Origin: Escherichia coli O157:H7
Lineage (GTDB): Bacteria; Pseudomonadota; Gammaproteobacteria; Enterobacterales; Enterobacteriaceae
Strand: one strand, 5' to 3'
DNA: 64,000 bases
Assembly (NCBI RefSeq): GCF_013167455.1
Contig: NZ_CP038328.1
Shown here: piece by piece, positions 27,001 to 30,000 of the stretch
Layout of the letters: every line of letters begins with the position of its first letter
How positions within the stretch are numbered: position 1 is the first letter of the stretch
Made by a program: the position numbers

Positions 27001-30000
27001 ATATAAATTAATCAGTAACTTCATAAAAAGAATATAAGAAACAGATAATGCATGTATTTACACACATATCAGCACAATGATAGATTACCACCCCAGAAAC
27101 ACGATAAAGGTATAATTATGGAATTTTCCGTTATTTTTTTCTGGGTTATCACTGGTCTTATTACCATCTTATTCTTAAAATCAATAATAACCGATCTAAT
27201 AAAAAACCTAAACAAAACAGACATAGCGTTATATATATTGGCATTTTTATCAGCCGGATATACATTCCAGTATATTTACAATGACAATATATTTTCAGAA
27301 CTATGGGGAGTTGGCCTGTTTGTTACTCTGATAGTACTGAATATAGTATTTAATCTCTTTTTTAGACTCTTATTCATTCTCTCGAAAATGATATTAATGT
27401 CACGACATATAAGAAAGATGCAAAAAAAACTAAAACAGACGTCTGTGCCTGATTTTATTTATTATTCAATAGAAAAACACAACAAATATCCCATATATGT
27501 ATTACACATGCCATCAAACAATATAATTGAAATAGGCTACAATATAATAAACACCGATCTGGTCATTGGCGAAAAAATTCATTTCAGGACACTAAGCAAT
27601 CGTTCTTTATATTTTAACCTCACCCACCCCCCATTAATCGCCACAATAAAAGATGATGTGTTTTGCACTCTTCATGATTACTATAACCACAATAATGAAA
27701 CGAAATCCACTATTGACAATTACATATCAAAAATAAAGGATAATCATAATACCCCATGGTTATTAAACAACGAAAATGTTCAGGAATAAAAAAAAAGAGA
27801 CAATTCCCGAGATAAAACAAAAGAGCATAAACATATGAACCGGAAATTCTATTTCAAAAATATCCTGTGGGGAATGTGCCCCATTATAATATCCATATTG
27901 CATCTGATATATGACACACCAACAGAAGCATCGATAAAAGTTGACTTATTTCTGATACTCAGTGGCCTGGCCCTTCCTTGTTCAATATACCTGACAAAAA
28001 CAATCACACTAAAATACACATCCATATCATTCTGGAAAAAACCTCTTTTCTGGTCTTATGGTATATATCATTTTCATCTTGTTTATATAATGATATGTAT
28101 AGTTTTAGCAATACCTTCTGCAATTATCGTTTTATTCTTTCACTTTTATCAAAACATCACCAGAAACTGGAAGTGACAACCGCAATAATGAACATAAAAA
28201 GGCAAATCAGAATGGCAGTAAATCAATAAAGTACCATTTCATATGAATCATCAGAAAAACGGTGGACGCGACATCCAGCACGAGGCAAAACACAGCAACA
28301 AAATAAGCCGGATATCGCGCCCTGTACTTTTCTAACTCAACTCCCGGCATTGTGCAAGTTTTAATCGCAGGTGGATTCAGAGCCACGCCCCCATTGATTC
28401 AGCCTGAAGACACGTATATCCTTGGAGAAAGCAGGAATCTCATTGCTGTGAAATTCCTTACAGAATCTTCAGCCCCATTTTATGGGGCTTTTTTTGGTGC
28501 CCCCACGCTGTTACCACACTTTCGGGATGCGAATAAAAAAGCCCACAGTTTTTACACTGCGGACTTTTGTTTTTTCTTTGTGATTTGTGTGCAAGGGTGC
28601 GACTTTCGACCGAACCTTTGGCAACCGGATAGCGGGGACTGTTGTCCCCGCTGCGGTTTCTTACGGTTTACACTGCAAGAACGCCGCAATTTCCGACCAC
28701 ATGAAGCTTACCCTGAATTCACACGGTGATGCGTGTAACACCCAGACGGTCAGCAACATGGTCAGGCATAACATGCCCACAATGATCGTTTTTTGCGGCA
28801 TAGCACTTGCTCCTTTTACAGAGAGGCGCTAACCTTCCACTTGCTGAAGGTAGATGGTCAGGGCCTCGGGTTAACGTTTAAGTTGACTCGGGGCCTTTCC
28901 ACATCCGGCCTTCAGGTAATCCTTCCAGCCGTCAGCCGAAAGGCACCCGCGCGTAATGTACTGGTTTTCAGAGAGGTCCGCAATCTTCCGGTGACGAGAT
29001 CATCTGCACACGCCCCGGTGGGACGGGCTAACGGTATATTCAGGTGCAGGATCTCTCTGTCTGGTGCGTTTTTAAATTGTCAAACGCACCCTGGCGGCAA
29101 AATCAGCCACCTTTTTTCGCATCAACAAAACGCCCAAAACGCTGGGTAAAGCGTGCAACATTACCTTCTGAAGCGACAGTTCTCAGTTTACCTGTATAAA
29201 ACGGATGCGACTTAGAAGAAACGTCAATTGTAACATATGGGTAAGTTACACCATCCAGTTCAATTACCCGGTCAGTTTTGATCGTCGAACCGATCCTGAA
29301 GTACTCATCAATACTGGTATCGTGAAATACTACTGTACGGTATTCCGGATGGATATTCGGTTTCACAACAGTTTTCCCCCTTTAAGTGAAAATTCCGCAT
29401 AAAGGTACATATTCAGACGGTCAGATTCAACTGTCTGTTCTTATAACCTCACTCTCTTTCAGTATTACAATATGTTATATAATTATAAACTGGACTTCCC
29501 GAAAAAATCCATTAAATAAGAAGCGAGCCGTTGCGGAGGCTTGCTCTCTCCTTTAACCTCATGTGCAATATCCGTAACGCGCTCACATAAATCATCATCT
29601 GATAATATAACAACACCCATTATTTTATTCTGACCTAAAAACTTCTTATGAAATAAACGTTTACCCGACGTATCTGATCCCGCTGTTTTTACCTGTATCC
29701 TTTAACATACTTGAGAAGCCCGCTGAAAAAATATACCGTAAAGGCGGTTTCTCTGTCTTCCATAAACCTGTCGGATAAGAAGGGCATTAAATGAAAACCA
29801 AAAAAGTTATGATGATTGCACTGGTCAGCTCTGCGCTGGCTCTTTCAGGATGTGGAGCCATGGGCACAGCGATCAAAAAACGAAATCTGGAAGTAAAAAC
29901 CCAGATGAGTGAAACCTGAGGTAGCCTGAGTTTAACGGACACTCCTTCCTGAAATAGAATGGCATCAGAAGGAGCTAATAATGAGCAGAAAAACCCAACG

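What the first reader, a model, noticed from the sequence alone, without database searches (positions are those of the whole stretch)
29103..29492. Zinc-independent L31 paralogue with Zur-box-like site, without an L36 paralogue partner
The 87-aa L31 type B gene is preceded by a Zur-like palindrome but no downstream L36-paralogue ORF was found; from memory, E. coli K-12 pairs these two genes (ykgM-ykgO). Here the hok-like locus follows instead. This may be a zinc-starvation ribosomal backup gene captured in accessory DNA, or a breakpoint within the native locus.
Basis: partly seen in the sequence, partly recalled or inferred. Interest (0 to 1): 0.35.

Follow-up and report, generated by a model that had tools for sequence, protein, structure and literature searches.

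The report
Orphan zinc-free L31 gene, Zur-uncoupled
Shiga-toxin E. coli carry, on their tellurite/urease island, an extra copy of the zinc-free ribosomal protein L31 that has lost both its L36 partner and its zinc-repressor operator and is transcribed even in zinc-replete media; this is a modest but testable variation on a well-known zinc-starvation system.

Summary
The gene is real. Window 29103-29366 (- strand, GTG start) encodes an 87-aa, cysteine-free type B L31, 93% identical to K-12 YkgM. No L36 paralogue exists anywhere in the window, whereas all 81 native loci examined have one directly downstream. The window is the STEC tellurite/urease island (OI-43/48, SpLE1-like). The same segment occurs in 575 of 5426 complete E. 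coli genomes, and a strain with an identical island still has an intact native ykgM-ykgO. So this is an extra, horizontally acquired copy, not a broken native locus. It lies in an ~800-bp fragment between plasmid-derived traT and hok/sok.

The Zur reading does not hold. In every native, the operator GTTATGTTATAACATAAC sits between the -10 and the ribosome-binding site. The island copy keeps the ancestral -35/-10 but has unrelated sequence where the operator belongs. It overlaps a second promoter (TATAAT). Published Cappable-seq data for EDL933 show start sites exactly 7 nt downstream of both predicted -10 hexamers in all eight zinc-replete conditions, with stronger signal than native ykgM.

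Best reading: an expressed, Zur-uncoupled orphan L31B. Translation, ribosome incorporation and the zinc-starvation response are untested. Interest is modest.

The parts
29103..29366 (-). Orphan type B (cysteine-free) ribosomal protein bL31 gene, 87 aa, GTG start
   Evidence: NF002462 at 121.6 bits against a cut-off of 86. 93% aa identity to K-12 YkgM. 0 Cys. pN 0.022 and pS 0.67 against K-12. RefSeq WP_000803992.1.
29402..29430 (-). Retained ancestral ykgM core promoter P2: -35 TTGAAT (29430-29425), 17-nt spacer, -10 TACCTT (29407-29402)
   Evidence: The family-invariant GTTG and GTA columns lie at native spacing. The local alignment to the K-12 promoter gives P about 0.001. The Klebsiella native has the same -10. 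A published TSS at EDL933 1082846 maps to window 29395, 7 nt after the -10, in all 8 conditions.
29367..29401 (-). Leader where all natives carry the Zur operator; here it reads TATGCGGAATTTTCACTTAAAGGGGGAAAACTGTT (Shine-Dalgarno AAAGGGGG at 29383-29376), with no operator
   Evidence: 81/81 natives have GTTATGTTATAACATAAC 6-30 nt before the start. The island has none there. The best matrix score at or below 29460 is negative.
29482..29511 (-). Second promoter P1: -35 TGGATT (29511-29506), 18-nt spacer, perfect -10 TATAAT (29487-29482)
   Evidence: Hexamer scan. The published main TSS at EDL933 1082766 maps to window 29475, 7 nt after TATAAT, in all 8 conditions, with mean RRS 76-263.
29463..29490 (.).
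   Evidence: 8.9 bits against at least 14.4 for validated operators. 3 mismatches to the Gilston 20-mer.
29598..29617 (.). Second weak Zur-like match, containing an inverted copy of the same 11-mer (TGTTATATWAT), 118 nt from the first
   Evidence: 3 mismatches. 2.8 bits. Inverted repeat I12.
29063..29090 (-). 9-bp stem hairpin just after the stop codon, with no U-tract
   Evidence: Fold of 28955-29110, z = -3.4. Variant L086 keeps the stem through a G-U pair.
28969..29774 (.). Roughly 800-bp 'captured' fragment with no plasmid homologue, carrying L31B with 408 bp upstream and 134 bp downstream (boundaries approximate, taken from the limits of BLAST matches)
   Evidence: Plasmid traT homology starts at about 29775. 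hok-locus homology ends at about 28968 (one search hit H6, one search hit H85). Native-operon homology covers only 29368-29104.
28661..28801 (-). Hok/Gef family toxin gene, downstream neighbour
   Evidence: NCBIfam HokA E 1e-7, below the cut-off. PGAP 'Hok/Gef family protein'.
28790..28948 (-). hok leader / sok region
   Evidence: Rfam RF01794 at 50.5 bits against a gathering score of 59, E 7e-10. An antisense TSS at EDL933 1083398 maps to window 28843 (+) in all 8 conditions.
29791..29916 (+). 5' fragment of traT (42 codons), divergent from L31B
   Evidence: NF010291 TraT residues 1-42. PGAP pseudogene. The traT gene is intact in variant islands L086/L088.
39102..40332 (+). Remainder of traT plus the hsdS 3' end, separated from the 5' fragment by about 9.2 kb (IS3 and autotransporter fragments, ure cluster, eptA-like, dgkA)
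   Evidence: blastn of L086 2221-3452 against window 39102-40332, 96% identity.

Best explanation
This is a horizontally acquired extra copy of the zinc-independent ribosomal protein bL31B (YkgM-like). It is carried in a plasmid-derived traT-hok module of the STEC tellurite/urease island. Compared with every native enterobacterial ykgM-ykgO operon, it has lost the L36B partner: homology stops exactly at the stop codon. It has also lost the Zur operator that natively lies between the -10 and the ribosome-binding site. It keeps the ancestral core promoter (P2) and has a second, stronger promoter (P1, TATAAT) 80 bp further upstream. As a result it is transcribed regardless of zinc sufficiency. 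The predicted effect is a standing pool of zinc-free L31 on top of rpmE and the Zur-controlled native ykgM.

Shown here: gene identity, orphan status, island context, the intact native operon elsewhere, operator loss, promoter retention, and transcription from both promoters in zinc-replete media (published TSS data).

Inferred: that the protein is translated and enters ribosomes; that it represses rpmE translation as K-12 L31p does (residues 1-18 are identical); and that expression is independent of Zur under zinc starvation.
For: Identity: (E. coli bL31B is solved in ribosome entry 6i7v).

Orphan status.

Island context and distribution: (575 of 5426 genomes).

Native operon intact in a strain with an identical island. 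Its operator scores 31 bits.

Long purifying selection: pN 0.022 against pS 0.67 versus K-12, with E. coli versus E. albertii at pS 0.41.

Operator: present in 81/81 natives and absent at the homologous position, although the flanking -35 GTTG and -10 GTA columns are invariant across the island copy and 8 natives (P about 0.001).

Weak upstream site.

Transcription: EDL933 Cappable-seq (PMC10469882, Tables S5-S7) gives gTSS at -109 and -29 in all eight conditions for both island copies (RS05230 and RS07440). These lie exactly 7 nt after the two predicted -10 hexamers. Main-gTSS mean RRS is 263/150/262/233/109/91/76/147, against 97/33/64/110/11/18/8/37 for native ykgM.
Against: None of the eight published conditions is zinc-limited, so further Zur-dependent induction cannot be excluded. 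EDL933 has two identical island copies, so read scores may be inflated up to two-fold. The native ykgM TSS is also detectable in LB, so TSS detection alone does not prove lack of repression. The weak Zur-like site sits exactly over P1's -10/+1, the classical repressor position, and is above chance for this intergenic region (P about 0.012). The GTG start, unlike the ATG used by 80 of the 81 natives examined, could limit translation. There is no protein-level evidence. No donor lineage was found, so it is unknown when the operator and L36B were lost.
Confidence: 0.65

Rival explanations
1. One reading: the island L31B is still a Zur-regulated zinc-starvation backup gene. Zn2-Zur binds the degenerate site at 29463-29490, perhaps together with its inverted partner at 29598-29617, and damps promoter P1. 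The gene would then be induced when zinc is scarce.
For: The site overlaps P1's -10 and +1. It ranks second of about 64,000 positions in the window on the ykgM-operator matrix, with P about 0.012 in shuffles of the intergenic region. It satisfies 7 of 8 positions of the purine/pyrimidine skeleton RNNNYRNNRYNNYRNNNY from PMC4219657 (my count on the sequence). Two of the 7 three-mismatch hits in the window fall in this 424-bp region.
Against: It scores 5.5 bits below the weakest validated E. coli operator (pliG, 14.4) and 12-29 bits below native ykgM operators. Only one half-site is intact. P1 is the main TSS, with RRS 76-263 in zinc-replete LB and M9, above native ykgM. P2, at -29, has no Zur-like sequence at all and is also active in all 8 conditions.
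Confidence: 0.2
2. A transcribed but functionless hitch-hiker. The ORF is intact only because the island is young. It is poorly translated (GTG start), or its product is out-competed by bL31A, and it contributes nothing to fitness.
For: 571 of the best matches are at least 99% identical, so intactness within the island family says little. GTG start. The surroundings are a junkyard of pseudogenes and IS fragments. No paper in the searched library mentions it.
Against: dN/dS is about 0.013 over a divergence where synonymous sites are near saturation, and the promoter core is conserved while the neighbouring operator is not. Both argue for selection on an expressed gene over most of its history. 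There is a good Shine-Dalgarno sequence (AAAGGGGG, 9 nt from the start). Two promoters are active. The variant islands differ by 1 synonymous change in 264 nt of CDS, against 8 changes in the 40 nt after the stop.
Confidence: 0.14
3. A breakpoint inside the native ykgM-ykgO locus: the window shows the chromosomal operon truncated by insertion of accessory DNA.
For: Homology to native operons ends exactly at the ykgM stop codon.
Against: The native ykgL-ykgO-ykgM-ykgR locus is intact elsewhere in a strain whose island is 100% identical. The island copy is only 82% identical in DNA to E. coli ykgM. The flanks are traT and hok, not ykgR/ykgL. The same module occurs in other island variants.
Confidence: 0.01

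Closest known systems
E. coli K-12 ykgM-ykgO (L31p/L36p, bL31B/bL36B) Zur-repressed operon
   Same: The protein is 93% identical and cysteine-free, with residues 1-18 identical. The same -35/-10 core sits at the same spacing from the start, and the leader length is the same (TSS at -29 here, against -28 in K-12 and -26 in EDL933 native).
   Different: There is no ykgO, no Zur operator and a GTG start. An additional upstream promoter is present. The gene lies on a mobile island between traT and hok rather than between ykgR and ykgL. DNA identity is only 82%, with synonymous sites near saturation.
Solitary Zur-regulated L31 paralogues in other phyla (for example B. subtilis ytiA/rpmE2, from general knowledge; N. 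gonorrhoeae RpmE2, PMC13343924 as listed)
   Same: A zinc-free L31 paralogue that can replace the zinc-binding form.
   Different: Those genes are chromosomal, native and under a demonstrable Zur operator. Here the operator is missing and the gene is island-borne. Neither system was examined with tools here.
Zur-regulated genes on a horizontally acquired island (V. cholerae VSP-II, PMC8248653, listed)
   Same: Zinc-starvation-type functions carried on a pathogen's genomic island.
   Different: According to that paper's title and abstract, the VSP-II genes are Zur-regulated. This island gene appears uncoupled from Zur, and it encodes a ribosomal protein.
L31p-mediated translational repression of rpmE (Rasmussen et al. 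2022, PMC9825181)
   Same: That abstract states that repression needs the L31p N-terminus. The island protein's first 18 residues are identical to K-12 L31p.
   Different: In K-12 the repressor is itself under Zur. An unrepressed island copy would short-circuit that cascade. This was not tested.

Membership tests
Type B (C-minus, zinc-independent) ribosomal protein bL31 | Sequence matches the curated type B L31 model above its cut-off | tested here: met
   NF002462 at 121.6 bits against a cut-off of 86, residues 1-78. The best PDB match is E. coli 'L31 type B', 6i7v, E 7e-41.
Type B (C-minus, zinc-independent) ribosomal protein bL31 | Lacks the CxxC...CxxC zinc ribbon of type A L31 | tested here: met
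   0 cysteines in 87 residues.
Type B (C-minus, zinc-independent) ribosomal protein bL31 | Is incorporated into 70S ribosomes in place of bL31A | not testable with these tools
   Needs ribosome purification and mass spectrometry with island-specific peptides.
Enterobacterial ykgM-ykgO operon | L36 type B gene immediately downstream, overlapping or within about 30 nt of the L31B stop (one native, L041, has it about 200 nt away) | tested here: not met
   Present in 81/81 natives. Absent here. The downstream 140 nt is no more similar to ykgO than shuffles are (P 0.34-0.51).
Enterobacterial ykgM-ykgO operon | Zur operator (core GTTATGTTATAACATAAC) between the -10 and the ribosome-binding site | tested here: not met
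   Present in 81/81 natives, 14-18 of 18 core matches. The island has GCGGAATTTTCACTTAAAGG at that position.
Enterobacterial ykgM-ykgO operon | Conserved core promoter (-35 GTTGa, 17 nt, -10 TAyCtt) about 30 nt before the start | tested here: met
   Invariant columns in alignment A3. TSS at -29 in EDL933.
E. coli Zur regulon | Operator matching the structure-based Zur box TGWNAYRWTATAWYRTNWCA, or scoring in the range of validated operators | tested here: not met
   The best sites have 3 mismatches, against 1 for the K-12 ykgM operator. They score 8.9 and 2.8 bits, against 14.4-33.4 for pliG, znuA, zinT and ykgM.
E. coli Zur regulon | Repressed in zinc-replete medium and derepressed by zinc starvation or zur deletion | tested here: inconclusive
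   Published TSS data show both promoters active in LB and M9, more strongly than native ykgM. No zinc-limited or zur-deletion condition is available.
hok/sok type I toxin-antitoxin (downstream neighbour) | Hok-family toxin ORF with an antisense Sok RNA over its leader | tested here: inconclusive
   Hok models match below their cut-offs. Rfam sok scores 50.5 against a gathering score of 59. A strong antisense TSS maps to window 28843 in EDL933 in all 8 conditions.

The most novel reading that the evidence does not exclude
STEC lineages that carry the ter/ure island constitutively make a zinc-free bL31B from a Zur-uncoupled xenologue. This would pre-load ribosomes with the zinc-independent form and, through the L31p-rpmE hairpin mechanism, hold down zinc-binding bL31A even when zinc is plentiful. 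The result would be a hard-wired shift in ribosome composition and zinc economy that pre-adapts the pathogen to calprotectin-type zinc sequestration in the inflamed gut.
Probability: 0.25. Interest if true: 0.55.

Novelty: new variant of a known kind. Interest (0 to 1): 0.35.

Why it matters
Zinc-free L31/L36 paralogues are the textbook example of Zur-controlled ribosome remodelling. In Enterobacterales the two genes and their operator looked inseparable: 81 of 81 loci examined here have all three. This island copy breaks both links, and it is transcribed in zinc-replete media in a major pathogen lineage; EDL933 carries two island copies. If the protein is made, these strains have a standing pool of bL31B. 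That would alter ribosome heterogeneity, the cell's zinc budget and the recently described L31p-rpmE regulatory cascade. It also offers a natural experiment on what bL31B does without bL36B and without Zur. If the protein is not made, the gene is simply a well-preserved passenger, and the finding is of annotation interest only.

Tried and rejected
(1) A vestigial ykgO after the stop. A by-eye similarity (AAAAACGCACCAGAC against AAGAACGCCATCCAGAC) proved no better than shuffles (P 0.37). nhmmer and the protein profile found nothing.

(2) Plasmid-borne L31B as a general phenomenon. The PLSDB hits outside the island sequence that I inspected (H42, H46, H47) are chromosomal native loci with ykgO, filed as plasmids or present on F-primes. 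pB39_V carries the whole ter/ure island.

(3) A donor lineage. The 5.8-billion-protein search gave no island-type protein outside the island cluster; hits at 93-96% are native E. coli alleles or frameshift artefacts. The best species representatives are E. albertii and a divergent Escherichia, at 91-92%.

(4) The two Zur-like 11-mers as ends of a MITE, or as halves of an operator split by an insertion. There are no other copies in E. coli and no target duplication, the order relative to the retained promoter does not fit, and 13 comparable inverted repeats occur in the same 1 kb.

(5) Tandem duplication of the promoter region. Only TTTAT is shared.

(6) A Fur box. By hand, 12 of 19 matches; not pursued.

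(7) Expression data in four other EHEC papers or supplements and locus-tag searches gave nothing. The 'ykgM_2' in ST131-like strains could not be linked to this allele. The divergent ykgM allele in locus L004 is a native locus with ecp genes alongside.

(8) The 45-aa upstream ORF has no homologue in the plasmid collection outside the island sequence.
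Full report
WHAT IS THERE. Window 29103-29366 (- strand) is an 87-codon ORF with a GTG start. It matches the NCBIfam model for type B 50S ribosomal protein L31 at 121.6 bits, against a cut-off of 86. It is 93% identical to K-12 YkgM: 81 of 87 residues match, and the changes are V19I, K24R, E34V and three in the C-terminal tail. It contains no cysteine, so it is the zinc-independent form. The closest solved structure is E. coli 'L31 type B' in ribosome entry 6i7v. RefSeq already annotates it as WP_000803992.1.

CONTEXT. The surrounding 25 kb matches, at 100% identity, a bovine STEC chromosome (strain E2863). The annotation there reads terW, nested IS66 elements, a frameshifted hypothetical gene, hok, L31B, a traT 5' fragment, IS3 and autotransporter fragments, ureGFECBAD, an eptA-like transferase and dgkA. 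This is the tellurite/urease island known as OI-43/48 in EDL933 and SpLE1 in Sakai (PMC8565820, PMC8193136). The 1.6-kb segment around the gene is present, at 80% coverage or more, in 575 of 5426 complete E. coli genomes.

In variant islands traT is intact, and the order is hsdM-hsdS-traT / L31B-hok ... integrase (loci L086 and L088). In the window, the rest of traT and the hsdS 3' end lie at 39102-40332. An insertion or rearrangement of about 9.2 kb, carrying the ure cluster, therefore split traT. A further arrangement exists in strain 2013C_3997.

Homology to F-like plasmid traT begins only at about 29775. Homology to other hok loci ends at about 28968 (one search hit H6, one search hit H85). 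L31B therefore sits in a fragment of about 800 bp that has no plasmid counterpart, wedged between two plasmid-derived genes.

THE MISSING PARTNER. I fetched 80 species-representative loci encoding relatives of this protein, from Escherichia through Vibrio and Pseudoalteromonas, and added K-12. Every one has an L36 type B gene downstream of L31B; it starts within about 30 nt of the L31B stop in all but one native (L041), where it lies about 200 nt away.

The window has none:
- tblastn with K-12 YkgO finds nothing better than E 0.16, far from the gene.
- A profile of the 80 native L36B proteins, searched against every stop-to-stop peptide in six frames, finds nothing better than E 0.43, at 55.5 kb.
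- An nhmmer profile of native operons (120 nt upstream, plus ykgM, plus ykgO) aligns to the window only from 29368 to 29104. Homology therefore begins 2 nt before the start codon and ends at the stop codon.
- The 140 nt after the stop are no more similar to ykgO than shuffled sequence is (P 0.34-0.51).

NOT A BROKEN NATIVE LOCUS. Strain E2863, whose island is 100% identical to the window, has an intact ykgL-ykgO-ykgM-ykgR locus at 345573-345976. The operator of that locus scores 31 bits on my matrix. The island gene is thus a third L31 gene in these strains, and a fourth in EDL933, which carries the island twice (PMC8565820).

It is a xenologue. It is 82% identical in DNA to E. coli ykgM. Synonymous differences are near saturation (pS 0.67) while non-synonymous differences are very low (pN 0.022). 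For comparison, E. coli versus E. albertii gives pS 0.41. GC3 is 0.35, against 0.47 for K-12.

No donor was found. In the 5.8-billion-protein collection, the island-type residues occur only in the island cluster, and the 93-96% hits are native E. coli alleles or frameshift artefacts. PLSDB 'plasmid' hits outside the island sequence are chromosomal fragments or F-primes that include ykgO.

THE ZUR QUESTION. In all 81 native loci a near-perfect palindrome, GTTATGTTATAACATAAC, lies 6-30 nt before the start codon. I built a 26-column matrix from the 75 distinct native sites. It scores those sites at 21-38 bits. It scores the three other validated E. coli operators at 20.2 (zinT), 18.9 (znuA/znuC) and 14.4 (pliG).

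At the homologous position, the island copy has TATGCGGAATTTTCACTTAAAGGGGGAAAACTGTT. A nine-sequence alignment shows that the island retains the family-invariant -35 GTTG and -10 GTA columns at native spacing: TTGAAT, 17 nt, TACCTT. This is the same -10 as the Klebsiella native. The operator that follows in all eight natives is replaced. The promoter similarity to K-12 is significant on its own (P about 0.001). Because synonymous sites are near saturation, a neutral intergenic segment should no longer be alignable. The pattern is conserved CDS, conserved promoter and unconserved operator. It suggests that selection kept the gene expressed but stopped maintaining Zur control. This last step is inference.

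It ranks second in the window, next to unrelated sites scoring 9.4, 8.8, 7.5 and 7.4. It is above chance for this AT-rich intergenic region (P about 0.012 in dinucleotide shuffles) but well below any validated operator.

Against the structure-based Zur box of Gilston et al. (TGWNAYRWTATAWYRTNWCA, PMC4219657), it has 3 mismatches. So does a second site at 29598-29617. The K-12 operator has 1 mismatch. The window holds 7 such hits against 2.85 expected. The two sites contain inverted copies of one 11-mer, 118 nt apart. I could not turn this into a split-operator or MITE explanation.

EXPRESSION. From the sequence I predicted two promoters:
- P2, the ancestral one, with -10 at 29407-29402.
- P1, TGGATT, 18 nt, TATAAT, with -10 at 29487-29482.

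A published Cappable-seq TSS map of EDL933 covers LB, M9 minimal medium, LB+malate and LB+NaCl, each in exponential and stationary phase, in triplicate (PMC10469882). It lists both island copies, RS05230 and RS07440, with gene TSS at 1082766/1482910 and 1082846/1482990 in all eight conditions. A further TSS at 1082787/1482931 appears in seven to eight conditions.

I mapped these to the window using the hok coordinates in the same tables; the 565-nt offset between the two start codons is the same as in the window. The two main TSS fall at window 29475 and 29395, that is, -109 and -29 from the GTG. Each is exactly 7 nt downstream of a predicted -10 hexamer.

Table S7 gives the mean relative read score of the main gene TSS. 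[quoted passage not shown]
- Island copy: 263, 150, 262, 233, 109, 91, 76, 147.
- Native ykgM: 97, 33, 64, 110, 11, 18, 8, 37.

That is where a repressor would act, yet P1 is the main start site in zinc-replete media. P2 has no Zur-like sequence at all.

Three caveats apply. The two EDL933 copies are identical, so scores may be inflated by up to two-fold. No zinc-limited or zur-deletion condition was sampled. The native TSS is also detectable in LB.

MECHANISM, WITH STATUS.

Shown: a cysteine-free L31B gene; an intact ORF with a good Shine-Dalgarno sequence (AAAAGGGGG ending 9 nt before the GTG); two active promoters; no canonical operator; no L36B in cis; a native ykgM-ykgO operon in trans.

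Inferred: the protein is made and competes with bL31A for the same ribosomal site. Because its first 18 residues equal those of K-12 L31p, whose N-terminus is needed to repress rpmE translation (PMC9825181), it may also lower bL31A synthesis. Because it is not under tight Zur control, these effects would occur even with zinc present. L36B, when needed, would come from the native operon.

I put about 0.65 on the overall picture of an expressed, Zur-uncoupled orphan. The alternatives are about 0.2 for residual Zur control through the weak site, about 0.14 for a functionless passenger, and about 0.01 for a native-locus breakpoint.

COMPARISON AND NOVELTY. As a protein, this is a plain member of the type B L31 family. 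As a genetic unit, it fails two of the defining features of the enterobacterial ykgM-ykgO operon (the partner and the operator) and keeps one (the core promoter). The gene and the island are already annotated and widespread. However, none of the literature searches found any discussion of this copy. I rate it a new variant of a known kind, of modest interest (0.35). The interesting reading is constitutive ribosome and zinc-economy remodelling in STEC. It is cheap to test with allele-specific qRT-PCR, Zur gel shifts and targeted proteomics.

Noticed in passing
window 29791-29916 and 39102-40332: traT is split. Its first 42 codons lie next to the L31B gene, and the rest, with the hsdS 3' end, lies 9.2 kb away. 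Between them are IS3 and autotransporter fragments, the ure cluster, an eptA-like transferase and dgkA. Variant islands have traT intact (L086) or show a different deletion and inversion (2013C_3997).
   Followed up: partly
window 29483-29620 (- strand): A 45-codon ATG ORF (MGVVILSDDDLCERVTDIAHEVKGESKPPQRLASYLMDFFGKSSL) lies upstream of L31B on the same strand. It is not annotated and has no homologue in the plasmid collection outside the island sequence. It contains the second weak Zur-like site, and a terminator-like hairpin lies on the opposite strand at 29522-29545.
   Followed up: partly
window 29363-29410 (- strand): A 15-codon upstream ORF ([15 protein letters not shown]) ends in a TGA that overlaps the GTG start (GTGA). 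It would be present only on transcripts from P1. One database variant with an extra A in the A-run fuses it in frame to L31B (protein P0002).
   Followed up: no
window 29055-29102; L086 4265-4310: Between the two island variants there are 8 substitutions in the 40 nt just after the L31B stop codon, which include the 9-bp hairpin at 29063-29090. There is only 1 synonymous change in the 264-nt CDS and very few in hok. The cluster is unexplained; it may be a recombination patch or a hypervariable spacer.
   Followed up: no
window 28843 (+), 28854-28959 (-), 29221 (-): Mapped from the published EDL933 TSS tables. A strong antisense (Sok-like) start lies at 28843 in all 8 conditions. Condition-specific hok mRNA starts lie at 28959, 28948, 28856 and 28854. 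An internal start lies inside L31B at +145 in all 8 conditions. No intrinsic terminator separates L31B from hok, so read-through into the toxin locus is possible.
   Followed up: partly
window ~20760-25590 (from L001 annotation): An IS66-family element whose tnpC is interrupted by a complete IS682 inserted in the opposite orientation, directly after terW.
   Followed up: no
window ~36350-38430 (from L001 annotation): A phosphoethanolamine (lipid A) transferase and a diacylglycerol kinase sit beside the urease cluster on the island. This pairing resembles eptA/mcr-type loci.
   Followed up: no
EDL933 345212 and 345430 (native ykgM; PMC10469882 tables): The Zur-repressed native ykgM promoter still gives a reproducible TSS in LB (mean read score up to 110). 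A second start lies 244 nt upstream, and there is an internal start for ykgO at 345096. TSS detection alone is therefore a poor proxy for derepression.
   Followed up: no
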